Assembly: GCA_945875865.1 (NCBI GenBank)
Contig: CAMCMF010000003.1
Location: 8,418 to 72,417 of the forward strand
Direction of reading: 5' to 3'
Source: Rhizobium sp. Q54
Lineage (GTDB): Bacteria > Pseudomonadota > Alphaproteobacteria > Rickettsiales > UBA1997
Length of the DNA stretch: 64,000 bases
Shown here: positions 7,700 to 58,227 of the stretch, in pieces
Numbering within the stretch: position 1 is the stretch's first letter
How the letters are laid out: each line of letters starts with the position of its first letter
Translations under genes and position numbers: made by a program
Notes under the pieces: generated by a model
Told to the model about the DNA's origin: nothing
The model's input: the letters and a program-made list of their open reading frames with translations, nothing else
Databases searched by the model: none

Positions 7700-7785
7700 G
7701 ATGGACCCCGTCGGGCAAAGGGGTGACAAACTAGAGGTAATTTGCACCCCATGAGTTGTCACCCCGTCGCATGACGGGGTCCATC
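7700..7785. repeat. palindromic hairpin-doublet repeat, family B (GATGGACCCCGTC...GGGGTGAC / GTCACCCCGTCGCATGACGGGGTCCATC)
   Basis: 86-bp inverted-repeat element; related copies at 21980, 25031, 41034 and 57113. Confidence 0.85.
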
Positions 7786-12997: not shown

Positions 12998-14360
12998 TTC
13001 CACAGAAAATAAAGTTGTAACTTTTGGTTGTCGCTTAAATGCCTACGAGTCTGAGGCAATAAAAGAAGCTTTAAAAAATTCCGATCAAAAAAATCTTGTC
13101 GTCTTTAATTCTTGCGCCGTCACCTCAGAAGCTGAGCGTGATTTGCGCCAAGCAATTCGCCGTACCAAGCGCGAAAATCCTCACGCAAAAATTGTTGTAA
13201 CTGGCTGCGCTGCGCAAATTGATCCGCAAAAATATGCTCAGATGGAAGAGGTGGATTTGGTGTTGGGAAATGTTGAGAAGTCAAAATCTGCAAGCTACGA
13301 ATTTCAAAATCACACTGCAGAAATTTCCGAAAAATTATTAAATTCTGATTCCGATATCGCTCACAAAGACCGCATTTTTTTTGAAACAAAAAAAGCCGCC
13401 GCAAATTTTTTAACTCCCGACGAAACCGCTAAAATCAAGGTTAACGACATTATGTCGGTGCGCGATACTGCGCCGCAACTTGTCAGTTATTTTGAAAATA
13501 AAACCCGCGCTTTTTTAGAAATTCAAAATGGCTGCAATCACCGGTGCACTTTTTGTATTATCCCTTTTGGCCGCGGAAATAGCCGCTCGGTGGCATTTGG
13601 CGAAATTGTTTCGCAAACAAAAAAAATGGTCGCAGCGGGACATCGCGAAGTGGTTTTTACCGGCGTTGATATTTCTGGTTACGGTGAAGATTTAGTGGTG
13701 CCGATTACTTTATCACAAATGTTAAAACGTTTGCTGGCTTTGGTTCCCGAGCTTCCGCGTTTACGTTTATCTTCAATTGATGTTGCGGAAATTGATGAAG
13801 ATTTTTTTGAATTATTAAAAACCGAACCACGCTTAATGCCTTATTTGCATTTGAGTGTGCAATCAGGCGACGACATAATTTTGAAGCGCATGAAGCGTCG
13901 TCATAATCGTCAGCAAATTTTAGAATTCTGCGCCAAAGCCCGCCAAATCAGGCCTGATATGACTTTCGGTGCCGACATCATCGCTGGCTTTCCAACTGAA
14001 ACCGACGAGATGTTTGAAAATTCTCTGCGCTTAATTTCCGAAGTTGGAATTATTTTTAATCACATTTTTCCTTATTCAAAACGCGAAGGAACGCCAGCCG
14101 CAAAAATGCCGCAAGTGAATGGAAAAATAATTAAGCAGCGTGCGAAATTATTGCGTGCAGCTGGGCAAGCTGAGCTAGAAAAATTCTTAAAAAAACAGGT
14201 AGGAAAAAATATAAAAGTAATTGTCGAAAAAGATGGAATCGCCCGCGCAGAAAACTTTTTGGAAGTAAAAATTTTAGGTGATTCAAAAAAATTAAAATCC
14301 AGCGATCTCTTGGAAGTCAAGGCTTGTGGCGTTGAAGGAAATTTTTTAACCGCAGAATAA
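12972..14360 (+). CDS. mtaB: radical-SAM methylthiotransferase, MtaB-like
   Basis: N-terminal UPF0004 domain (VVTFGCRLNAYESE), radical-SAM CNHRCTFC, C-terminal TRAM-like region. Confidence 0.8.
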   Translation: MTAAATTNNSTENKVVTFGCRLNAYESEAIKEALKNSDQKNLVVFNSCAVTSEAERDLRQAIRRTKRENPHAKIVVTGCAAQIDPQKYAQMEEVDLVLGNVEKSKSASYEFQNHTAEISEKLLNSDSDIAHKDRIFFETKKAAANFLTPDETAKIKVNDIMSVRDTAPQLVSYFENKTRAFLEIQNGCNHRCTFCIIPFGRGNSRSVAFGEIVSQTKKMVAAGHREVVFTGVDISGYGEDLVVPITLSQMLKRLLALVPELPRLRLSSIDVAEIDEDFFELLKTEPRLMPYLHLSVQSGDDIILKRMKRRHNRQQILEFCAKARQIRPDMTFGADIIAGFPTETDEMFENSLRLISEVGIIFNHIFPYSKREGTPAAKMPQVNGKIIKQRAKLLRAAGQAELEKFLKKQVGKNIKVIVEKDGIARAENFLEVKILGDSKKLKSSDLLEVKACGVEGNFLTAE

Positions 14361-14365
14361 AACTA

Positions 14366-14434
14366 CTGGATCCCCGCCTGCGCGGGGATGACAAACTCTC
14401 TCTCCGTGTCATCCCCGCGAAGGCGGGGATCCAG
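14366..14434. repeat. palindromic hairpin-doublet repeat, family A (unit GTCATCCCCGCGAAGGCGGGGATCCAG)
   Basis: CTGGATCCCCGCCTGCGCGGGGATGAC - spacer - GTCATCCCCGCGAAGGCGGGGATCCAG. Confidence 0.9.
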
Positions 14435-14464
14435 GAGGGATAAACTAAAAACTCAAATCACCAT

Positions 14465-14530
14465 ATGAGTTACTGGACATACATCTTAAGTTCAAAAAAA
14501 ACGGCACGCTTTATATCCGGCGTCACTAAC
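14465..14530 (+). pseudogene. truncated 5' fragment of a GIY-YIG nuclease gene
   Basis: ATGAGTTACTGGACATACATC...A8...GGCACGCTTTATATC-C-GGCGTCACTAAC, then it abuts the second duplication unit. The last codons (GGC GTC ACT AAC) differ synonymously from the full copy (GGT GTT ACC AAC). Confidence 0.7.
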
Positions 14531-14552
14531 TTTTAACCGCAGAATAAAACTA

Positions 14553-14621
14553 CTGGATCCCCGCCTACGCGGGGATAACAAACTCTCTCTCCGTGTCATC
14601 CCCGCGAAGGCGGGGATCCAG
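14553..14621. repeat. palindromic hairpin-doublet repeat, family A
   Basis: Second copy inside the 187-bp duplication, 2 substitutions relative to 14366-14434. Confidence 0.9.
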
Positions 14622-14651
14622 GAGGGATAAACTAAAAACTCAAATCACCAC

Positions 14652-14932
14652 ATGAGTTACTGGACATACATCTTAAGTTCAAAAAAAACGGCACGCTTTA
14701 TATTGGTGTTACCAACGATTTATCGCGCAGAATTTTTGAACATAAAAACAAATCTAGCGAAGGTTTTACGAAAAAATATGGAGTGGATAAGTTGGTTTAT
14801 GCAGAGGAATTTACGAATATTAATGAGGCAATTTTTCGAGAGAAATCTTTAAAAAAATGGAATCGCAAGTGGAAGTTGAGATTGATAGAAAGTATTAATC
14901 CAACTTGGAGCGATCTTTACGAAACTTTATAA
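14652..14932 (+). pseudogene. small GIY-YIG nuclease (COG2827/UPF0213-like), frame interrupted in an A8 run and intact after a -1 shift
   Basis: Frame 0 gives MSYWTYILSSKK. The -1 frame from 14687 gives NGTLYIGVTNDLSRRIFEHKNKSSEGFTKKYGVDKLVYAEEF...EAIFREKSLKKWNRKWKLRLIE...*. Joined, this is a canonical GIY...YIG...R...E...N domain of about 93 aa. Confidence 0.75.
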
Positions 14933-14935
14933 ATC

Positions 14936-15001
14936 CTGGATCCCCGCCTACGTGGGGAAGGTGCCGAGAGGCTTGTCATCCCCGCGAAGGCGGGGATCCA
15001 G
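14936..15001. repeat. palindromic hairpin-doublet repeat, family A
   Basis: CTGGATCCCCGCCTACGTGGGGAAG...GTCATCCCCGCGAAGGCGGGGATCCAG, 3 nt after the GIY-YIG stop. Confidence 0.85.
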
Positions 15002-15025
15002 TAAGTTAAAACTTAAACAAAAATT

Positions 15026-16603
15026 ATGACCATTTCACAAAAATCTTACCTCGAATCGAAAGCTTGGCCGTTTGAAGAAGCGCGCAGAATTTTGGAAAAA
15101 GTTGGCGGAAAGACTCCAGCGAAAGGTTATGTTTTATTTGAAACCGGCTATGGCCCGTCTGGCTTGCCGCATATTGGAACTTTTGGTGAAGTGGTGCGAA
15201 CTTCTTTTGTGCGTCATGCTTTTTCGATGATTGCGCCCGAAATTCCGACGAAAATGTTTTGTGTTTCGGATGATATTGACGGACTTCGCAAAGTGCCGGA
15301 AAATTTACCGAATCAGGAAATGATCCGCGCGAATTTGGGTCGTCCACTCACTTCAGTTCCAGATCCTTATCAAACTCACGCATCTTTTGGTGATCACATG
15401 AATGCGCGTCTGCGTGGCTTTCTCGATGGTTTTGGTTTTGAATATGATTTTATTAGCGCCACAGAAAAATATAAATCCGGCGCCTTTGATTCAACAATGC
15501 TGCGCGTTTTAGAAAAATATGAAGAGTTGATGGAGCTAATGCTACCAACACTTGGCGGTGAGCGTCAGGAAACCTATTCACCTTTTATGCCGATTGATTC
15601 TGAGTCAGGAATCGTAATTGATAAAGGCGTGAAAGGTGTGAATAAGCAGCGTGGAACCGTGATCTATCTTGATCCAAATGGCGTTGAAAAAGAAGTTCCT
15701 GTAACTGGTGGCAATTGCAAATTGCAGTGGAAAATTGATTTCGGCGCGCGCTGGTATTCGCTCGATGTCGATTACGAAATTTATGGAAAAGATCACCAAC
15801 CCAATGAAAGAATTTATCGCCGCGTCTGCGAGATCTTGGGCGGCAAGCCTCCAGTGAATTTCACTTACGAAATGTTTTTATCCGACAATGGTGAAAAAAT
15901 TTCCAAATCGAAAGGAAATGGCATTTCAGTTGAGGATTGGTTGAAATATGCACCGGCGGAATCGATGGCGCTTTTCATGTATCAAAAACCAAAAACGGCG
16001 AAGCGTCTTTATTTCGACGTAATTCCGAAAGCGATGGATGAATATTTAACTTTTGCACAAAGTTTTGTCGGACAAGAAGAGGCTGCGAAGCTAGATAATC
16101 CGGCCTTCCACATTCATGCCGGAAAAATTCCGTCGATAAATTTTAATGTCAGCTATTCGCTTTTGTTGAATTTGGCTTCAGTCTGCAATCCAGAAAATGA
16201 TGCAGTTTTGTGGGGATTTATTTCGAAATATCAGCAAGGTTTGAGCGCCGAAACTTCACCGCTTTTGGCAAAAATGGTTCATTGCTCAATTGCTTATTAC
16301 AACGATTTCATCAAGAAAAATAAAAAATTCAGAACTGCTTTGGAAGCAGAAAAATCAGCGCTTCGTGAACTTTGTTTAATGTTAGAAAATTTTCCAAAAG
16401 AGCAAGCGCATGACGGCGCTTTATTACAAAATCAAGTTTTCCAAATCGGAAAAAATCACGGTTACGAAAGTAAAATGCGCGATTGGTTTTTAGCGCTTTA
16501 CCAAATTTTGCTCGGCCAAGATCAAGGCCCAAGAATGGGATCTTTTATCGCGCTATTCGGGATTGAGAATTTTGTAAAATTGGTGGAAGAGAAAATCAAA
16601 TAA
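15026..16603 (+). CDS. lysK: lysyl-tRNA synthetase, class I
   Basis: Class I signatures PHIGTFGEV (HIGH-like) and KISKSKGN (KMSKS); about 525 aa, as in class I LysRS. Confidence 0.9.
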
Positions 16604-17381
16604 TACTCTTCACTTCAGAAATTAAATTCAAAAAAACATCAGTTTCGTAATTATCATGCTTGCCTTGCATAATTGAGGTGATGCGTTCCAAGCCCATGCC
16701 GGTGTCGATGCAGGGTTTTGGAAGTGGAATCATTTTTCCATCCTTATGTTTTTCAAATTGCATAAAAACCAGATTCCAAATCTCAATAAAACGATCGCCA
16801 TTTTGATCTTTTGATCCCGGAACGTCGCCGAAAATTTTATCGCCATGATCGTAGAAAATTTCAGAGCAGGGGCCGCATGGACCAACTTCGCCCATCGACC
16901 AAAAATTATCGTCGGTGGAAATTTTTATAATTTTTTCATCGGAAAGTCCGGCGATTTTTTTCCATAAATTTTTTGCATCTTCGTCAGTGTGATAAACGGT
17001 CACTAAAAGTTTTTCTGCTGATACGCCAAGTTCTTTGGTCAAAAAATTCCACGCGTAAAAAATCGCTTCTTCTTTAAAATAATCGCCGAAAGAAAAATTT
17101 CCCAACATCTCAAAAAAAGTGTGATGACGTGCGGTGTAGCCGACATTGTCGAGATCATTATGCTTGCCGCCGGCGCGTACGCATTTTTGTGAAGTTGCAG
17201 CCCGTTTAAATTTTGGAACTTCAATGCCAGTGAAATAATTTTTGAACTGATTCATGCCGGCATTGGTGAACATCAATGTCGGATCATTATGCGGAATTAG
17301 TGGTGAAGATGGAATAATCTCGTGGCCATTTTTGGCGAAATAATCGAGAAATTTTGTGCGGATTTCGTTGGTTGAAAGCAT
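16596..17381 (-). CDS. alaS: alanyl-tRNA synthetase, N-terminal fragment (class II catalytic core, motifs 1-3)
   Basis: [20 protein letters not shown]...[10 protein letters not shown]...[19 protein letters not shown]...[15 protein letters not shown]...; ends ...[10 protein letters not shown]; the stop overlaps the convergent lysK by 8 nt; start taken at ATG 17381. Confidence 0.85.
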
Positions 17382-17407
17382 GGGGGCAATTAGCAATTAA
17401 GAGTTAG

Positions 17408-18961: not shown

Positions 18962-19921
18962 ATGAACTACGTAATCCCTACAAATCTAGAACAAGAAATT
19001 CTCCGTTTAAAACGTGAGCAAAATGCTGTGATTTTGTCGCATTTTTATCAGGATCCTGAGCTGCAGGATATTGCAGATTTCGTTGGCGATTCTCTTGATC
19101 TCTCGCGCAATGCCGCTTCAACTAAAGCTGATGTGATTGTTTTTTGTGGCGTAAAATTCATGGCGGAAGTGGCGAAAATTTTATCGCCGAGTAAGAAAGT
19201 TTTAATCCCAGATTTTAAAGCCGGTTGTTCATTGGAAGATTCCTGCCAGCCAAAAGATTTTGCCGAATTCAAAAAAAAATATCCGCATGCTGTAGTTGTG
19301 ACTTACATCAATTGCTCCGCTGAAATCAAGGCTCTATCCGATGTAATCGTTACTTCAACTAATGCCAAAAAAATCATCGAACAAATTCCGGCGGATAAGG
19401 AAATTATTTTCGCTCCCGATAAGCATTTAGGTCGTTATTTAGAAAAAGTTACCGGCCGAAAAATGATTTTGTGGAATGGATCTTGTATCGTTCACGAACA
19501 ATTTTCTGAAAAGGAATTGGTGAAATTAATTACTAATCATCCGCAAGCAAAAGTGATTGCACATCCAGAATGTCCGGAAGCGCTTTTGAATTATGCTAAT
19601 CACGTTGGATCGACATCATCCTTGTTGAAATATACCGCAGAAAATCAAGGCGGAGAATTTATTGTTTTGACGGAGTTGAACATCATTCACCAAATGAAAC
19701 AAAAAAATCCGACCGGTAGATTTTACGATTGTCCTTTCATCGACAAAGCAGGTTGCAGCCTTTGCAACTCCTGTCCTTACATGAAATTAAACACTTTGGA
19801 AAAACTTTATCTGGTGATGAAATATGGGGACAAATCTTTTACGGGCGGCGAGTTGCAACTAGATGAAGAATTGCGCGTTAAAGCTGAAAAGCCACTGCGC
19901 AGAATGCTGGAAATGTCTTAA
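18962..19921 (+). CDS. nadA: quinolinate synthase
   Basis: About 319 aa; ...ILSHFYQ...FCGVKFMAE...HPECP...C..C.YMK typical of NadA. Confidence 0.9.
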   Translation: MNYVIPTNLEQEILRLKREQNAVILSHFYQDPELQDIADFVGDSLDLSRNAASTKADVIVFCGVKFMAEVAKILSPSKKVLIPDFKAGCSLEDSCQPKDFAEFKKKYPHAVVVTYINCSAEIKALSDVIVTSTNAKKIIEQIPADKEIIFAPDKHLGRYLEKVTGRKMILWNGSCIVHEQFSEKELVKLITNHPQAKVIAHPECPEALLNYANHVGSTSSLLKYTAENQGGEFIVLTELNIIHQMKQKNPTGRFYDCPFIDKAGCSLCNSCPYMKLNTLEKLYLVMKYGDKSFTGGELQLDEELRVKAEKPLRRMLEMS

Positions 19922-20030
19922 CCTCCTTTGAAAAAGGAGGTGGCCCGAAGGGTCGGAGGATTTTATCAAAAAGAAAATCCTCCGCCTTCGCTAAGAAGCT
20001 ACGGCGGACAAGCCCGTCATCGCTAACGCC
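19922..20030. repeat. composite palindromic repeat, family D
   Basis: CCTCCTTTGAAAAAGGAGGTGGC...GGAGGATTTT...AAAATCCTCCGCCTTCGCTAAGAAGCTACGGCGGACAAGC...; related copy at 42890-43013 and a fragment nested at about 24170-24200. Confidence 0.75.
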
Positions 20031-21979: not shown

Positions 21980-22068
21980 GATGGACCCCCGTTCATGCGA
22001 CGGGGTGACAAGTGTGGGAATAGCGCAAACCCTCTCTATTTGTCACCCCGTCGCATGACGGGGTCCAG
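21980..22068. repeat. palindromic hairpin-doublet repeat, family B
   Basis: GATGGACCCCCGTTCATGCGACGGGGTGAC...GTCACCCCGTCGCATGACGGGGTCCAG. Confidence 0.85.
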
Positions 22069-41033: not shown

Positions 41034-41120
41034 GATGGACCCCGTCATGAAGAAGGGGTGACAAATTGAGAAGGTAATTCGTGCCACGCAAGTTGTCACC
41101 CCGTCGCATGACGGGGCCAT
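41034..41120. repeat. palindromic hairpin-doublet repeat, family B
   Basis: GATGGACCCCGTCATGAAGAAGGGGTGAC...GTCACCCCGTCGCATGACGGGGCCAT, between the rnj stop and the alaS C-fragment start. Confidence 0.85.
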
Positions 41121-42889: not shown

Positions 42890-43013
42890 ACCCTCTTTGA
42901 AAAAGAGGGTGGCATCGCGTAAGCGATGACGGGTGATTTTGGTAAAACGAATTCTTAATTTAAGAAATCCTCCGACCTCGCTAACGCTCGGCCACCTCCT
43001 TTGTTAAAGGAGG
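42890..43013. repeat. composite palindromic repeat, family D
   Basis: CCCTCTTTGAAAAAGAGGGTGGC...AAATCCTCCGACCTCGCTAACGCTCGGCCACCTCCTTTGTTAAAGGAGG; overlaps the last codons of coaX. Confidence 0.75.
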
Positions 43014-43789
43014 TTTTCCTCATAAACCACTCTCAAGCCTGTAAGCGTAAGATTTGGTTCATGATGTTGAATTGAATTTTTTAGAGCATCTTTAAAAATT
43101 TCTGCCAATCCGCCTGTAATGATGCAGGTAGTTTTATGTCCAAGTTCGGCTTCGATTTTAGAAATCATTCCTTCAACAAGCGAGATATATCCGAAGTAAA
43201 CTCCAGAATTCATCGCTTCAGCGGTGCTTTTTCCGATAACATTTTTTTGTTGTTTGATGGTGATGCGTGGCAATTGCGCAGTCATGTCGTGCAGAGCTTT
43301 TAGCGATAAATTAATTCCCGGAGAAATTACGCCGCCAAGATATTCGCCATTTTTTCCAATCACATCGAAAGTAGTCGCAGTGCCAAAGTCGATGATGATG
43401 AGATCGCCACCAAATTTTTTATAACCGGCGATCGCGTTGATTAAGCGATCGTGACCAACTTCATTTTTATTTTTTAATTGAATTTCAATATTTAAACGGG
43501 TTTTTTTTTCGCCAACAATCATAATTTTTGTGGCGATATCTTCGTTTAAAAACTTTTTTACCGCTTCACTTATTCGGGTGGTAAGCATAGGAACTACTGA
43601 GGCGATGATGCATCCGTTAAATCGCAAACAATCTATTTTATCGGTGAGAAAAAGTTCGATAATATCGACCGCATAATCATCGACGGATTTTTTCATATCA
43701 CTAACCAAGCGCCATTGTTTGGTTAGTTTTTTTTCATCAAAAAGTCCGATGGTGATGTTGGTATTTCCGATGTCGAAAGTGAGAAGCAT
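43004..43789 (-). CDS. coaX: type III pantothenate kinase
   Basis: MLLTFDIGNTNITIGLF...IIDFGTATTFD... Confidence 0.85.
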   Translation of the reverse strand: MLLTFDIGNTNITIGLFDEKKLTKQWRLVSDMKKSVDDYAVDIIELFLTDKIDCLRFNGCIIASVVPMLTTRISEAVKKFLNEDIATKIMIVGEKKTRLNIEIQLKNKNEVGHDRLINAIAGYKKFGGDLIIIDFGTATTFDVIGKNGEYLGGVISPGINLSLKALHDMTAQLPRITIKQQKNVIGKSTAEAMNSGVYFGYISLVEGMISKIEAELGHKTTCIITGGLAEIFKDALKNSIQHHEPNLTLTGLRVVYEENLL

Positions 43790-45501: not shown

Positions 45502-45516
45502 TTGGTTTTTTAGTTT

Positions 45517-45581
45517 GTCATCCCCGCGAAAGCGGGGATCCAGACTTTTAGAAACTGGATCCCCGCTTTCGCGGGGATGAC
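45517..45581. repeat. palindromic hairpin-doublet repeat, family A (outward arrangement)
   Basis: GTCATCCCCGCGAAAGCGGGGATCCAG - 17 nt - CTGGATCCCCGCTTTCGCGGGGATGAC. Confidence 0.9.
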
Positions 45582-45598
45582 AAACTGAAAATAATTTT

Positions 45599-47385: not shown

Positions 47386-48570
47386 ATGAAAGATAAATTT
47401 TATCTAACCGAAAAACTGCCACCTTACATTTTTGCTTCAATCTATCAATTCAAGTCTGAAGCCTCTGCAAATGGTATCGAGGTTTTGGATTTTGGCATGG
47501 GAAATCCAGATTCTGCGCCACCAAAACATGTCATGTCGCGTCTTTCCGAGTTAGCAAATGATCCAAAAGTTTTCGGCTATTCTACAGTTGGTGGAATTGA
47601 AATTTTAAAAAAATCGATCTGCGAATATTATAAACGTCGCTTCAATGTTGATATTGATTATAAGTCAGAAGCCCTTGTCACTATTGGAGCGAAAGAAGGT
47701 ATTGCATCTTTGGCCACCGCAATTTCTGACGAACAAAGTTACATCTGCGTTCCATCGCCTTCTTATCCAATTCACAATTTTGCCTTCATAATTTCGAAGT
47801 CGAATATCCACCAAATTCCCGCAATAAATTCGCGCAGTTTTTTGGATGAATTTAAAAAACATGTGATTGGCGCATCCCAGAAGCCACAAGCTGTAATCGT
47901 TTCTTATCCTTGTAATCCAACTACGGAAATTGTCGGTTTAGATTTTTATTCTGAGTTGGTGGATTTTTGCAAAGAGCATGAAATCTACATCATTTCTGAC
48001 ATCGCTTATTGCGAACTTTATTTTGACGAAAAAGACAAACCGCATTCAATCTTAGAAATTCCAGGCGCCAAAGATATTGCGATTGAATTTTCTTCCGTTT
48101 CAAAAAGCTATTCTATGGCTGGTTGTCGCGTTGGTTTTGCGGTTGGAAATAAAAATTTAATTAACGCGCTTTATAAAATTAAATCCTATCTCGACTACGG
48201 ATCATTCTCGCCGTTGCAAATGATTGCAGTTGATGCGCTATCAGAAAAAAGCGACGAATATCTAAAAAATTTATGCAAAACTTACGATGATCGCGGTAAA
48301 TTTTTGATCGAATTATTTCAAAAAGAACTTGGTTGGGAAATTGCAAAACCAAAAGCCAGCATGTTCTTATGGGCGAAGTTACCAAAAGAATTTGCCCATC
48401 TTTCTTCCTTCGATTTTTGTAAAAAAATGATTCTTGAAGCTGGAGTTGCAATGTCACCGGGAAGTGCATTTGGCGCGAGTGGAGAAGGATTTGTAAGATT
48501 TTCGCTAATTCATGATGAAGAAAATATGAAGAAAGCTGCTGCGAGATTGAAGAAGATATTTAGTGAATAA
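47386..48570 (+). CDS. class I/II PLP-dependent aminotransferase (AlaC/LL-DAP-aminotransferase-like)
   Basis: ...LPPYIFA...DFGMGNPD...YPCNPT...SVSKSYSMAGCRVGF... Confidence 0.75.
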   Translation: MKDKFYLTEKLPPYIFASIYQFKSEASANGIEVLDFGMGNPDSAPPKHVMSRLSELANDPKVFGYSTVGGIEILKKSICEYYKRRFNVDIDYKSEALVTIGAKEGIASLATAISDEQSYICVPSPSYPIHNFAFIISKSNIHQIPAINSRSFLDEFKKHVIGASQKPQAVIVSYPCNPTTEIVGLDFYSELVDFCKEHEIYIISDIAYCELYFDEKDKPHSILEIPGAKDIAIEFSSVSKSYSMAGCRVGFAVGNKNLINALYKIKSYLDYGSFSPLQMIAVDALSEKSDEYLKNLCKTYDDRGKFLIELFQKELGWEIAKPKASMFLWAKLPKEFAHLSSFDFCKKMILEAGVAMSPGSAFGASGEGFVRFSLIHDEENMKKAAARLKKIFSE

Positions 48571-48584
48571 ATTTGTCGCTCTCT

Positions 48585-48653
48585 GTCATCCCCGCGAAAG
48601 CAGGGATCCAGAATGTTTTTAAAGAGCTGGATCCCTGCTTTCGCGGGGATGAC
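48585..48653. repeat. palindromic hairpin-doublet repeat, family A (outward arrangement)
   Basis: GTCATCCCCGCGAAAGCAGGGATCCAG - 21 nt - CTGGATCCCTGCTTTCGCGGGGATGAC (compensatory G>A / C>T changes keep the pairing). Confidence 0.9.
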
Positions 48654-48672
48654 AGAGAATAAATATTAATTT

Positions 48673-49390
48673 GTGATAAATTTCAAAATCCTCACCATTT
48701 TCCCCGAACTATTTCCCGGAGCGCTAGCTGCTTCAATCACCGGCTCCGCTTTAACAAAAAACCTCTGGTCTTTGCAAGTAATTAATATTCGTGATTATGC
48801 CAAAGATAAGCACGCAACAGTTGATGATACACCTTATGGCGGTGGGGCGGGGATGCTGTTTAAAGTTGATGTTGTCGCTGAGGCAATTGAGCAAAATCTT
48901 TCAGAAAAAAAAATCAAAAATAATTTATCTCTCGCCGCGCGGAAAAGTTTTTAATCAAAAAATTGCGCAGGAATTAGCCAAAGAAAAAGAAATCATGATC
49001 CTGTGTGGACGCTACGAAGGCGTGGATCAACGCGTTTTGGATGAATTCGCCATCGAAGAAATTTCTATTGGTGATTATGTTTTATCGGGCGGAGAAGTTG
49101 CGGCATTTCCATTTATCGATGCGATTTTGCGCAATGTTGAAGGGGTTTTAGGCGCTGATGAATCTTTAGCAGAAGAATCTTTCGGCTCAGAAAAAAATTC
49201 TGATTTTGAAAATTTATTGGAATATCCGCATTACACCAGACCAGCAAAATGGCGGGGTCACGACGTGCCGGAAATTCTGACTCAAGGACATCACAAAAAA
49301 ATTAATGAGTGGCGCAAAGAGCAAGCAATCGCAGTAACAAAAAAAAATCGCCCCGATCTTTATCGAAAATTTTTGGATATTTTTAATTAG
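48673..49390 (+). CDS. trmD: tRNA (guanine37-N1)-methyltransferase TrmD, reading frame broken in an A9 run (48905-48913)
   Basis: The N-part frame (48673-48954) gives ...[14 protein letters not shown]...[11 protein letters not shown]. The C-part frame (to 49390) gives ...[14 protein letters not shown]...[11 protein letters not shown]...[11 protein letters not shown]. With A8 the two join as ...[14 protein letters not shown]... Confidence 0.8.
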
Positions 49391-57112: not shown

Positions 57113-57215
57113 GTCACCCCGTCTTTATGATGGGGCCTATCTTGCCGCGACTGTTGAGATCAATTTAATTTCCGAATATTTGACGAAATGGACCCCGTCA
57201 TAAAGACGGGGTGAC
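57113..57215. repeat. palindromic hairpin-doublet repeat, family B (outward arrangement, long spacer)
   Basis: GTCACCCCGTCTTTATGATGGGGCC...TGGACCCCGTCATAAAGACGGGGTGAC. Confidence 0.8.
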
Positions 57216-58122: not shown

Positions 58123-58144
58123 ATCGGGTTGTTCAGTTTTTTAT

Positions 58145-58214
58145 GTCATCCCCGCGAAAGCGGGGATCCAGTTTGTTTCAAGATTCTCTGGATCCCCGCT
58201 TTCGCGGGGATGAC
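58145..58214. repeat. palindromic hairpin-doublet repeat, family A (outward arrangement)
   Basis: GTCATCCCCGCGAAAGCGGGGATCCAG - 16 nt - CTGGATCCCCGCTTTCGCGGGGATGAC; a half-unit remnant lies at about 57294-57312. Confidence 0.9.
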
Positions 58215-58227
58215 ACCGAGGGTTTTG

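What the first reader, a model, noticed from the sequence alone, without database searches (positions are those of the whole stretch)
14344..15001. Small GIY-YIG nuclease gene bracketed by family A hairpin doublets: a possible REP/RAYT-like pairing
Seen in the sequence:
- The only protein-coding candidate in the 665-bp mtaB-lysK spacer is a roughly 93-aa GIY-YIG domain ORF (14652..14932).
- A family A element lies 30 nt upstream (14553-14621) and another 3 nt downstream (14936-15001), both in the same inward arrangement.
- The three family A copies elsewhere in the window (45517, 48585, 58145) have the opposite, outward arrangement and no adjacent gene of this kind.

Established knowledge: REP hairpins are mobilised by RAYT (Y1/HUH) transposases whose genes are characteristically flanked by REPs. 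GIY-YIG domains are structure- or sequence-specific nucleases used by homing endonucleases.

Inference: this stand-alone GIY-YIG protein could be the nuclease that nicks and spreads the GTCATCCCCGC-GAAA-GCGGGGATCCAG hairpins. As far as I know that pairing has not been described.
Basis: partly seen in the sequence, partly recalled or inferred. Interest (0 to 1): 0.75.

Follow-up and report, generated by a model that had tools for sequence, protein, structure and literature searches.

The report
Known Ssn nuclease with hairpin repeats
The small GIY-YIG gene flanked by hairpin repeats is real, but it is a new example of the Ssn nuclease and hairpin-motif system published in 2025, here with a frameshifted gene in an uncultured alphaproteobacterium, so the pairing is not new.

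Summary
The 665-bp mtaB-lysK spacer contains one frameshifted 93-codon GIY-YIG gene (14652-14932). Doublets of the hairpin GTCATCCCCGCGAAGGCGGGGATCCAG lie 30 nt upstream and 3 nt downstream. A third doublet comes from a 187-bp tandem duplication, and three more doublets lie elsewhere in the window (11 copies; 0 expected by chance).

The pairing is already described. Chenal et al. 2025 (Nat Commun 16:2388, PMC11893778) showed that 94-aa single-domain GIY-YIG proteins (SsnA, cd10448) bind the hairpin repeat CGTCATTCCCGCGMAVGCGGGAATCYRG (NTS/SRM). They bind it only as single-stranded DNA, on one strand, and cut a few nucleotides 5' of it. Their genes are typically flanked by these repeats.

The window protein is 55% identical, without gaps, to the Neisseria gonorrhoeae SsnA orthologue and keeps Y6, Y17 and E64. 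The published SRM pattern hits 8 window sites, against 0.05 in shuffles. Across 81 homologue loci from many phyla, SRM density is 44-fold higher next to the gene.

Specific to this window:
- The gene is out of frame (A8) in three of four population contigs and intact (A9) in one.
- The tandem duplication is polymorphic.
- The dispersed doublets are insertions absent from relatives.

Whether Ssn spreads the repeats is still untested. This is a new member of a known kind, of low to moderate interest.

The parts
14344..14530 (+). Copy 1 of a 187-bp tandem duplication. It holds the last 17 nt of mtaB, an R-F hairpin doublet and a 22-codon 5' fragment of ssn (ATG at 14465).
   Evidence: the repeat finder family D1: 14344-14516 versus 14531-14703, 98% identical. 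tblastn finds the fragment at 14465-14530. Illumina contig L005 is identical through both copies; L117, from another sample, has a single copy.
14366..14393 (-). SRM hairpin R1 (TGTCATCCCCGCGCAGGCGGGGATCCAG on the minus strand)
   Evidence: Matches the published SRM search pattern; 1 mismatch to the family consensus.
14407..14434 (+). SRM hairpin F1 (TGTCATCCCCGCGAAGGCGGGGATCCAG)
   Evidence: As ssDNA the single hairpin folds at -12.5 kcal/mol; the R1-F1 doublet folds as one long hairpin at -38.6 kcal/mol, z=-11.
14553..14580 (-). SRM hairpin R2, a degenerate copy with GTTAT in place of GTCAT. It fails the published pattern.
   Evidence: Contig L001 has the intact GTCAT version at this position.
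14594..14621 (+). SRM hairpin F2, the inner upstream repeat, ending 30 nt before the ssn start codon
   Evidence: F is the usual orientation upstream of ssn homologues: 46 F versus 9 R among 82 loci.
14652..14932 (+). ssn gene (single-domain GIY-YIG ssDNA endonuclease, 93 codons), out of frame at the A8 run 14681-14688
   Evidence: PF01541 at E=1.5e-17. The corrected protein is 100% identical to P0001, which is intact with A9 on contig L001. It is 55% identical without gaps to the N. gonorrhoeae SsnA orthologue, E=9e-34. Y6, Y17 and E64 are conserved.
14936..14962 (-). SRM hairpin R3, the inner downstream repeat, starting 3 nt after the stop codon. It is degenerate (stem CCCCGC/GTGGGG, GTCAT lost).
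   Evidence: 1 mismatch in the core; inverted repeats I1/I2. It does not match the published pattern.
14974..15001 (+). SRM hairpin F3, the outer downstream repeat, ending 24 nt before the lysK start
   Evidence: The whole downstream doublet (14934-15007) is an inverted copy of the upstream doublets, 82-83% over 77 nt.
45516..45582 (.). Gene-less F-R doublet between an intrinsic-terminator-like hairpin and aspS
   Evidence: It folds as one hairpin at -44.3 kcal/mol. It is absent at the orthologous site in L095; other hairpin families occupy that site in L091, L094 and L098.
48584..48654 (.). Gene-less F-R doublet (CAGGG variant) between an aminotransferase gene and trmD
   Evidence: It is absent at the orthologous site in the 10 relatives that keep trmD next to the aminotransferase gene, including one at 90% protein identity (L090).
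58144..58215 (.). Gene-less F-R doublet between two minus-strand genes

Best explanation
This is an Ssn/SRM locus. The 93-codon gene encodes a single-domain GIY-YIG endonuclease of the Ssn family, and the GTCATCCCCGCGAAGGCGGGGATCCAG hairpins are its cognate Ssn-related motifs (SRM).

Expected activity, by homology to the characterised enzymes: when the gene is in frame, the protein binds the hairpin only when the DNA is single-stranded. It binds only the strand that reads GTCAT...CCAG, and it nicks a few nucleotides 5' of the motif, in the variable flank.

Anatomy of the locus: the gene sits in the family's usual architecture, F-gene-R. Here each repeat has been extended to a roughly 70-nt doublet, and the two doublets form inverted terminal repeats. 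The three dispersed F-R doublets are gene-less copies of the same repeat pair and are further predicted targets.

State in this population: the gene is mostly out of frame (A8), with an intact A9 allele in one sample. Activity is therefore probably off, low, or variable between cells.

Basis of each step:
- Shown here: family membership, repeat identity, the association, the polymorphisms, and that the doublets are insertions.
- Inferred from the literature: ssDNA binding and cleavage.
- Unknown: the role in this organism. It could be restriction or modulation of recombination of ssDNA, as in Neisseria, and/or maintenance of the repeats.
For: Protein:
- Pfam GIY-YIG at E=1.5e-17, with no second domain.
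- 55% identical, gap-free and colinear with the 94-aa N. gonorrhoeae SsnA orthologue, E=9e-34 pairwise and 2e-13 by tblastn against 7.3 Gb. That orthologue sits among 9 exact NTS copies in 2.2 kb.
- Y6, Y17 and E64, the residues whose mutation abolishes SsnA cleavage, are invariant in the alignment.

Repeat:
- It differs from the Neisseria NTS consensus CGTCATTCCCGCGMAVGCGGGAATCYRG only at the first base and by one compensatory stem pair (T:A to C:G).
- The published SRM search pattern hits 8 window sites against 0.05 in 100 dinucleotide shuffles.

Association (81-82 loci: 80 found with a homologue alignment in named genomes of Alphaproteobacteria, Flavobacteriaceae, CPR, Ignavibacteria, Planctomycetes, Dehalococcoidia and others, plus L002 and, for the orientation counts, the window):
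- SRM density is 1.28/kb within 300 nt of the gene against 0.029/kb more than 1 kb away.
- The nearest oriented hairpin is F upstream in 46 loci (R in 9) and R downstream in 43 (F in 12).
- Upstream and downstream stems are identical in 22 of 42 loci, against 7.0 expected by permutation and a maximum of 14.
- 22 loci carry the exact 24-nt Neisseria NTS core.
- A 75%-identical homologue in a different context (queF-ssn-lgt) is also flanked by related doublets.

Biochemistry of four homologues, and the same statistical association, are in PMC11893778.
Against: - No biochemistry exists for this protein or this CCCC-stem variant of the motif.
- The gene is frameshifted in the window and in three same-population Illumina contigs (L005, L117, L118).
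- The inner downstream repeat has lost GTCAT, the region the paper found critical for cleavage. The upstream R2 copy has GTTAT.
- As ssDNA the doublets are predicted to fold into one long F:R hairpin (-29 to -44 kcal/mol) rather than two SRM hairpins of -12.5 kcal/mol each. That would present the motif as a duplex, a form SsnA does not bind.
- CDD cd10448 assignment could not be tested.
- The N. meningitidis protein itself was not available; I used the gonococcal orthologue, identified by length, residues and NTS context.
Confidence: 0.87

Rival explanations
1. Extension of the main reading, and not exclusive of it: Ssn is the mobilising nuclease of a selfish system analogous to REPIN/RAYT. 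F-ssn-R would be the autonomous element. The F-R doublets would be non-autonomous derivatives copied to new intergenic sites after Ssn nicks single-stranded DNA, with host replication or repair completing the step.
For: - The architecture resembles an insertion sequence, with roughly 75-nt inverted doublets at both ends.
- The dispersed doublets have the same F...R polarity as the gene's inner repeats.
- Doublets are presence/absence polymorphisms. The one at 48584-48654 is absent from the 10 relatives that keep trmD next to the aminotransferase gene, including one at 90% identity. The one at 45516-45582 is absent in L095 and replaced by other hairpin families in L091, L094 and L098.
- ssn is present or absent at the mtaB-lysK site among relatives with 88-93% LysK identity.
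- Homologues 60-77% identical occur in unrelated phyla and contexts, often on short, broken contigs.
- Upstream and downstream stems co-vary.
- The hypothesis is raised, but not tested, in PMC11893778.
Against: - GIY-YIG enzymes are hydrolytic nucleases with no known covalent intermediate or strand-transfer activity.
- I found no consistent target-site duplication at the three doublets.
- The predicted cuts lie on opposite strands outside F...R, which matches no known transposition chemistry.
- Orientation around the gene is not fixed: R-F/R-F here, F-R/R-F in L002, and R...F in N. gonorrhoeae.
- The only demonstrated function is ssDNA restriction during transformation.
- 19% of SRM-rich genomes lack ssn.
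Confidence: 0.3
2. Relic reading, also not exclusive: in this lineage the system is decaying. ssn is a fresh pseudogene, the proximal repeats are eroding, and the doublets are passive leftovers with no current activity.
For: - The A8 frameshift is present in the window and in contigs from two samples (L005/L118 and L117). Only L001 has A9.
- R2 has GTTAT and R3 is degenerate.
- A 5'-truncated ssn sits at the same site in relative L089.
Against: - Apart from the single-base slip, the reading frame has no stop codon and keeps every family-invariant residue.
- An intact allele exists in the population, identical at every other coding position (one further difference, in the upstream hairpin R2).
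- Eight window SRMs still match the strict published pattern, and several are perfect.
- Homopolymer length variation is reversible. It could act as an on/off switch or be partly rescued by transcriptional slippage; both are inference only.
Confidence: 0.3
3. The hairpins are ordinary REP elements moved by a Y1 (RAYT) transposase encoded elsewhere in the genome, and the GIY-YIG gene lies between them by coincidence.
For: The repeats look like REP/REPIN elements: intergenic, GC-rich, imperfect palindromes in inverted doublets. The rest of the genome could not be searched for a RAYT gene.
Against: - The same hairpin family flanks the same gene family in dozens of unrelated phyla, with 44-fold local enrichment and a preferred orientation.
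- Homologous proteins bind and cut the homologous hairpins directly.
- The only gene between the repeats here is GIY-YIG, not Y1/HUH.
Confidence: 0.03
4. The hairpins are only cis-regulatory elements of the local genes, such as terminators or mRNA stabilisers for mtaB, ssn and lysK.
For: They are stable GC-rich stems placed directly after stop codons and before start codons.
Against: - There is no T-run after the stems.
- The identical sequence is dispersed at unrelated loci in both orientations.
- SsnA does not bind RNA.
- No Rfam family matches.
Confidence: 0.05

Closest known systems
Ssn nuclease family with NTS/SRM hairpin repeats (SsnA, NMV_0044/NMB0047, cd10448; Chenal et al. 2025, Nat Commun 16:2388)
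   Same: - A single-domain GIY-YIG protein of 93-94 aa with Y6, Y17 and E64; 55% identical to the gonococcal orthologue.
- A hairpin motif that matches the published SRM pattern and differs from the NTS by one compensatory stem pair.
- The gene is flanked by its own motif on both sides.
- Further copies of the motif are dispersed in intergenic DNA.
   Different: - The stem variant is ATCCCC/GGGGAT, not ATTCCC/GGGAAT.
- The repeats occur as tight inverted doublets, not as NTS clusters around surface-protein genes.
- The gene is frameshifted at a poly-A run in most population contigs.
- Part of the locus is tandemly duplicated.
- The host is an uncultured alphaproteobacterium whose competence for transformation is unknown, so the Neisseria role may not apply.
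REP/REPIN elements and RAYT (Y1/HUH, IS200/IS605-like) transposases
   Same: - Short GC-rich palindromes in inverted doublets.
- A dedicated nuclease that recognises the hairpin on single-stranded DNA in a strand-specific way.
- A single-copy nuclease gene flanked by its own repeats.
   Different: - The enzyme is a hydrolytic GIY-YIG nuclease, not an HUH tyrosine transposase with a covalent intermediate.
- No strand transfer or mobilisation has been shown.
Neisseria dRS3 repeats and NIME arrays
   Same: The dRS3 core ATTCCC-N8-GGGAAT is the same palindrome family. About half of dRS3 copies are NTS.
   Different: dRS3 was defined only as a 20-bp palindrome, historically linked to phage integration and recombination. 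The window repeats carry the oriented GTCAT and CCAG flanks that define NTS/SRM.
UPF0213/YhbQ-type small GIY-YIG proteins (PDB 1zg2, 1ywl)
   Same: A stand-alone GIY-YIG domain of about 95-107 aa; these are the closest solved structures.
   Different: Similarity is only weak (E=7e-6 and 3.5e-4) and they belong to a different subfamily. No hairpin association is reported for them in the sources I read.
GIY-YIG homing endonucleases (I-TevI, Seg proteins)
   Same: The same catalytic fold, and selfish-element behaviour.
   Different: They carry separate DNA-binding domains, cut double-stranded DNA and are found in phages and introns. The NCBIfam group I intron endonuclease model scores 26 bits against a cutoff of 56. 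There was no match in 50,697 phage records.

Membership tests
Ssn family (site-specific ssDNA nucleases, cd10448) | Single-domain GIY-YIG protein of about 94 aa with no extra DNA-binding domain | tested here: met
   93 aa after frame correction. PF01541 covers residues 3-76 and nothing else matches. Homologues are 87-144 aa, mostly 93-100 aa.
Ssn family (site-specific ssDNA nucleases, cd10448) | Significant similarity to Neisseria SsnA (the paper's criterion is tblastn E<1e-10) | tested here: met
   tblastn E=2e-13 to the N. gonorrhoeae chromosome in a 7.3-Gb database. Pairwise BLASTP gives 55% identity over 86 residues without gaps, E=9e-34. The comparison used the gonococcal orthologue (94 aa, among 9 NTS copies), not the N. 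meningitidis protein itself.
Ssn family (site-specific ssDNA nucleases, cd10448) | Catalytic and cofactor residues Y6, Y17 and E64 | tested here: met
   All three are present at the same numbered positions and are invariant across 38 homologues. The mutant data are in PMC11893778.
Ssn family (site-specific ssDNA nucleases, cd10448) | Assignment to CDD model cd10448 (GIY-YIG_unchar_3) | not testable with these tools
   No CDD library is available here. Pfam and NCBIfam give only the generic GIY-YIG domain.
Ssn family (site-specific ssDNA nucleases, cd10448) | Gene flanked by SRM hairpins matching HGTCWYN(0-2)YYVSBRHN(0-5)WNVSBRGN(0-2)RNCYNB on both sides | tested here: met
   Pattern hits at 14366-14393(-), 14407-14434(+) and 14594-14621(+) upstream, and 14974-15001(+) downstream; 8 hits in the window against 0.05 in shuffles. 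The two copies nearest the gene on the R side (14553-14580 and 14936-14962) are degenerate and fail the pattern.
Ssn family (site-specific ssDNA nucleases, cd10448) | Many dispersed SRM copies in the same genome | tested here: inconclusive
   Three further doublets (6 hairpins) lie in the other 63 kb of the window. The rest of the genome is not available, so no genome-wide count was possible.
Ssn family (site-specific ssDNA nucleases, cd10448) | Strand-specific binding of the hairpin as ssDNA and cleavage a few nt 5' of it; no activity on dsDNA or RNA | not testable with these tools
   This needs biochemistry. It has been shown for the N. meningitidis, N. elongata, N. wadsworthii and Wolbachia pipientis enzymes.
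Ssn family (site-specific ssDNA nucleases, cd10448) | Intact open reading frame | tested here: not met
   The A8 run at 14681-14688 breaks the frame in the window and in contigs L005/L118 and L117. The A9 allele on L001 is intact. This concerns activity in this strain, not family membership.
REP/RAYT system | The nuclease gene flanked by the repeats encodes a Y1/HUH (IS200/IS605-type) transposase | tested here: not met
   The only gene between the repeats is GIY-YIG, PF01541. There is no other ORF with homology support in the spacer.
GIY-YIG homing endonucleases | A GIY-YIG domain joined to a DNA-binding domain, sited in an intron or phage | tested here: not met
   The protein has a single domain of 93 aa. 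TIGR01453 scores 26.3 bits against a cutoff of 56. There is no phage match.

The most novel reading that the evidence does not exclude
The most novel reading my evidence does not exclude is this. Ssn is not only a restriction-like ssDNA nuclease but also the engine of a second, GIY-YIG-based class of REPIN-like mobile repeats. F-ssn-R would be the autonomous unit and the F-R doublets its non-autonomous progeny. The poly-A tract in codons 10-13 would act as a slippage switch that turns the system on and off in the population.

The following are all compatible with it:
- the insertion polymorphisms of doublets among close relatives;
- the matching polarity of the gene-flanking and gene-less repeat pairs;
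- the co-variation of upstream and downstream stems;
- the A8/A9 alleles.

The mobilisation idea itself has already been voiced as a hypothesis in the 2025 paper.
Probability: 0.3. Interest if true: 0.6.

Novelty: new member of a known kind. Interest (0 to 1): 0.25.

Why it matters
The pairing is now textbook-adjacent rather than new, so the value of this locus is as material for a question the 2025 paper left open: do Ssn nucleases propagate their own hairpin repeats?

This population offers natural contrasts in one place:
- in-frame and out-of-frame alleles;
- presence and absence of a 187-bp duplication;
- intact and eroded repeats;
- recent doublet insertions that relatives lack.

It also adds a distinct enzyme/motif pair (CCCC stem) to the catalogue of possible site-specific ssDNA cutters, which is the applied interest of the family.

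For annotation, recognising SRMs explains spurious N- and C-terminal extensions of called proteins, and contig breaks at these loci.

Tried and rejected
- Rfam (E<=1) over 14000-15300 gave only sub-threshold microRNA and sRNA noise caused by the long palindromes.
- A PDB sequence search found only UPF0213 proteins and no Ssn structure.
- There was no match in phages.
- The first literature search, 'GIY-YIG' plus 'repetitive extragenic palindromic', found nothing. The Ssn paper surfaced only with 'hairpin / inverted repeats / mobile'. Follow-up searches for later work on SsnA, cd10448 and dRS3 returned only that paper. Its supplementary files are not held.
- I tried an empty-site test using the neighbours of homologue P0002 (queF, lgt, dnaA and others). 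None of them is present in the window.
- A look-up of the 66-aa frameshift product to count A8 alleles found it is not on record.
- I looked for target-site duplications at the three F-R doublets and at the ssn unit. Only short AT-rich repeats turned up (GAATAAAT at 48565/48657, TAAAACT at 14357/15007), with no consistent length or position. I treat them as chance. At 45516-45582 the comparison with L095 suggests insertion into TTT|AAA without duplication, but the intergenic alignment is too divergent to rely on.
- I considered a simple model in which a single F and a single R form the terminal inverted repeats. I rejected it as general because orientation varies: L002 is F-R/R-F and N. gonorrhoeae is R...F.
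- I considered the tandem duplication to be an assembly artefact. I rejected this because a k141 Illumina contig reads through the diverged junction. That contig is 100% identical to the window, however, so it is not an independent population.
- No RAYT search of the whole genome was possible.
Full report
**1. Observation**

The sequence is as described.
- mtaB ends at 14360 and lysK starts at 15026, a spacer of 665 bp.
- The only coding sequence there with homology support is a GIY-YIG gene at 14652-14932. It is split by a frameshift in an A8 run at 14681-14688.
- With one more A it reads as 93 aa: MSYWTYILSSKKNGTLYIGVTNDL...SDLYETL. That sequence matches Pfam PF01541 at E=1.5e-17 and has no second domain.
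- The hairpin GTCATCCCCGCGAAGGCGGGGATCCAG (called F; its reverse complement is R) has 11 matches in the window at <=3 mismatches, against 0 in 100 shuffles. A twelfth, degenerate copy was found with the core pattern.
- R-F doublets lie at 14366-14434, 14553-14621 and 14936-15001.
- F-R doublets lie at 45517-45581, 48585-48653 and 58145-58214.
- There is no other GIY-YIG gene in the window.

**2. Details the finding did not state**

- Tandem duplication. The segment 14344-14530 holds the last 17 nt of mtaB, a doublet and the first 22 codons of the gene. It is tandemly duplicated at 14531-14717, and 173 nt are 98% identical. This is why there are two upstream doublets.
- Inverted ends. The downstream doublet is an inverted copy of the upstream ones, 82-83% over 77 nt. 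The gene is therefore bracketed by inverted terminal repeats of about 75 nt.
- Eroded copies. Two gene-proximal hairpins are degenerate: 14553-14580 reads GTTAT, and 14936-14962 has lost GTCAT.
- Polarity. The inner hairpins bracket the gene as F...R, the same polarity as the dispersed F-R doublets.

**3. What it is**

Close homologues of the protein are very numerous: 1798 hits, the best 120 being 63-77% identical to it (bar the 100% match, P0001), with named ones in several phyla, many on short contigs. A 75%-identical homologue in a different context (queF-gene-lgt) is also flanked on both sides by related hairpin doublets.

I searched named genomes with an alignment of 38 homologues. At least 596 loci matched, and the best 80 were kept. 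They come from Alphaproteobacteria, Flavobacteriaceae, Saccharibacteria/Parcubacteria, Ignavibacteria, Planctomycetes, Dehalococcoidia, Omnitrophota and others.

A hairpin scan of the 220 nt on either side of each gene showed a recurring pattern in most loci: AT[TC]CC[CT]GC-NNNN-GC[GA]GG[AG]AT upstream, and its complement downstream.

Several database proteins have end extensions that are translations of the hairpin (MCHPRLDRGS..., MSFPRRRESR......GFPLSRE).

**4. Literature**

A full-text search found Chenal et al. 2025 (Nat Commun 16:2388, PMC11893778). The paper reports the following.
- It defines the Neisseria Transformation Sequence, CGTCATTCCCGCGMAVGCGGGAATCYRG, a subset of dRS3.
- It defines the broader Ssn-related motif (SRM).
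- 71% of homologues of a 94-aa single-domain GIY-YIG gene (ssnA, NMV_0044/NMB0047, cd10448) have at least one SRM nearby, and 42% have one on both sides.
- 81% of genomes with more than 200 SRMs encode a homologue.
- SsnA binds the motif only as single-stranded DNA, only on one strand, and cuts a few nucleotides 5' of it. It does not act on dsDNA or RNA.
- The mutants Y6A, Y17A and E64A still bind but do not cut.
- In N. meningitidis the system lowers transformation by DNA that carries the NTS.
[quoted passage not shown] Mobilisation was not tested.
- Rickettsia and Wolbachia are named among SRM-rich taxa.

**5. Membership tests run here**

- Pattern match. The published SRM pattern hits 8 sites in the window, against a mean of 0.05 and a maximum of 1 in 100 dinucleotide shuffles.
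- Difference from the NTS. The window motif differs from the NTS consensus only at the first base and by a compensatory T:A to C:G stem pair.
- Similarity to Neisseria SsnA. tblastn against PLSDB hit two N. gonorrhoeae chromosomes filed there as plasmids, at E=2e-13. The locus encodes a 94-aa protein with Y6, Y17 and E64, embedded among 9 exact NTS copies in 2.2 kb. The window protein is 55% identical to it over 86 residues without a gap, E=9e-34.
- Local enrichment. In 81 homologue loci, the published pattern occurs at 1.28/kb within 300 nt of the gene and 0.029/kb more than 1 kb away, a 44-fold difference. F[gene]R is the commonest architecture among loci with any match.
- Orientation. With a looser, orientation-aware hairpin scan of 82 loci, the nearest upstream hairpin is F in 46 and R in 9. 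The nearest downstream hairpin is R in 43 and F in 12.
- Stem matching. Upstream and downstream stems are identical in 22 of 42 loci, against 7.0 expected and a maximum of 14 in 2000 permutations.
- Exact NTS core. 22 loci carry the exact 24-nt Neisseria NTS core.
- Not testable. CDD assignment and the biochemistry could not be tested.
- Rfam and PDB. Rfam has no matching family. The PDB holds only distant UPF0213 proteins.

**6. Organism and population context**

LysK is 82-93% identical to proteins from uncultured Alphaproteobacteria and 'Rickettsiales bacterium' MAGs.

Same-population Illumina contigs:
- L005 and L118 (sample ERZ27280311) are 100% identical to the window. They break at the repeat, contain the duplication, and carry A8.
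- L117 (sample ERZ27280264) has three SNPs in mtaB, a single unduplicated copy, and A8.
- L001 (sample ERZ27280257) carries A9 and therefore the intact 93-aa gene. It also has an intact GTCAT in the upstream R hairpin.

The frameshift is thus a real population allele and the commoner one. The window itself has at least one other homopolymer discrepancy, in trmD (see section 10), so its homopolymer lengths should not be trusted alone.

Apart from the slip, the frame has no stop codon and keeps every family-invariant residue.

**7. Evidence bearing on mobility**

The mtaB-lysK spacer varies among relatives with 88-93% LysK identity:
- two acetyltransferase genes in L087;
- a YhcG nuclease gene in L088;
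- YhcG plus a 5'-truncated, 65%-identical ssn with one hairpin in L089;
- an acetyltransferase-like gene in L086.

None of these has family-A hairpins.

The F-R doublet at 48584-48654 is absent at the orthologous aminotransferase-trmD junction in the 10 relatives that keep trmD next to the aminotransferase gene, including one at 90% identity.

The doublet at 45516-45582 is absent in L095. In L091, L094 and L098 that site holds hairpins of other GTCA-type families.

The doublets therefore behave as lineage-specific insertions.

I found no consistent target-site duplication.

As single strands, the doublets are predicted to fold into one long F:R hairpin (-29 to -44 kcal/mol, z from -7.5 to -17), not two SRM hairpins of -12.5 kcal/mol each. 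This is inference only.

**8. Mechanism**

- Best-supported: when in frame, the protein recognises the GTCAT...CCAG hairpin on single-stranded DNA and nicks just 5' of it.
- For F-gene-R and F-R doublets, the predicted nicks fall outside the unit, on opposite strands.
- For R-F doublets, they fall inside the 13-15-nt central spacer.
- Whether the role here is restriction or modulation of ssDNA recombination, as in Neisseria, or propagation of the repeats, is open.
- GIY-YIG enzymes have no known strand-transfer chemistry, so any spreading would need host replication or repair.

**9. Verdict**

It was published in 2025, including the RAYT/REP analogy. The window adds a new family member with a variant motif and some informative polymorphisms. 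Novelty: a new member of a known kind. Interest: low to moderate.

**10. Seen in passing**

- trmD (48673-49390) is frameshifted in the window at an A9 run (48897-48905). It is intact, with A8, on the Illumina contig L120.
- A second GTCA-type hairpin family, GTCACCCCGTCGCATGACGGGGTCCA, occurs at 7761, 22045, 41099 and 57192, and also in relatives.
- A third hairpin family, ACCTCCTTTGAAAAAGGAGGT, occurs at 19921, 42890 and 42994.
- L087 has its own tandem duplication of the mtaB 3' end.
- The junction of the window's duplication differs from the parent gene at synonymous-type positions. I have no explanation for this.

Noticed in passing
window 48673-49390 (A-run 48897-48905): trmD, normally essential, is frameshifted in the window at an A9 run. 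The same-population Illumina contig L120 has A8 and an intact 238-aa TrmD. The window therefore carries at least one homopolymer discrepancy, either an assembly error or real variation.
   Followed up: partly
window 7761-7780, 22045-22064, 41099-41116, 57192-57212; also L086 1-25 and L091 294-410: A second GTCA-flanked hairpin family (GTCACCCCGTCGCATGACGGGGTCCA) occurs as single copies in the window. It resembles an SRM but fails the published pattern. It is shared with relatives, so it may be the motif of another Ssn paralogue encoded elsewhere in the genome.
   Followed up: partly
window 19921-19941, 42890-42910, 42994-43014: A third repeated hairpin, ACC(T/C)C(C/T)TTTG-AAA/TTA-AAAGGAGGGT type with a 9-bp stem and 3-nt loop, lies at gene ends. 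A similar copy occurs in relative L103.
   Followed up: no
L086-L089 (orthologous mtaB-lysK spacers); L087 1590-1900: The mtaB-lysK spacer is a hot spot for variable cargo in relatives: acetyltransferase genes, a YhcG/DUF1016 nuclease gene and a truncated ssn. L087 has its own tandem duplication of about 155 bp that includes the mtaB 3' end, although it has neither ssn nor SRMs there.
   Followed up: partly
window 14517-14545 versus 14704-14733: The end of duplication copy 1 (CCGGCGTCACTAAC) differs from the parent gene (TGGTGTTACCAACG) mainly at third-codon positions: GGC GTC ACT AAC versus GGT GTT ACC AAC. The preceding 173 nt are 98% identical. The junction lies where the mtaB 3' end (TTTAACCGCAGAAT) resembles ssn codons 24-29 (TTTATCGCGCAGAAT). 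The origin is unexplained; it could be unequal crossover followed by conversion from another ssn copy.
   Followed up: partly
P0012, P0021, P0035, P0076, P0088 (alignment A1); LysK homologues of 547-548 aa: The N- and C-terminal extensions of these five Ssn homologues (MCHPRLDRGS..., MSFPRRRESR......GFPLSRE) are translations of SRM hairpins, so they are gene-calling artefacts. The longer LysK homologues of 547-548 aa may have the same cause; I did not check them.
   Followed up: partly
L122 (NZ_CP119140.1 1881287-1883544): A 2.17-Mb N. gonorrhoeae chromosome is filed as a plasmid in PLSDB. Around its ssnA the nearest hairpins are R upstream and F downstream, the reverse of the F-gene-R arrangement that dominates elsewhere.
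   Followed up: partly
window 16596-17396 (minus strand); L087, L088, L117, L118: A 261-266-aa gene carrying only the AlaRS catalytic-core domain (PF01411) lies next to lysK and is conserved in relatives. It is far shorter than a full AlaRS.
   Followed up: no
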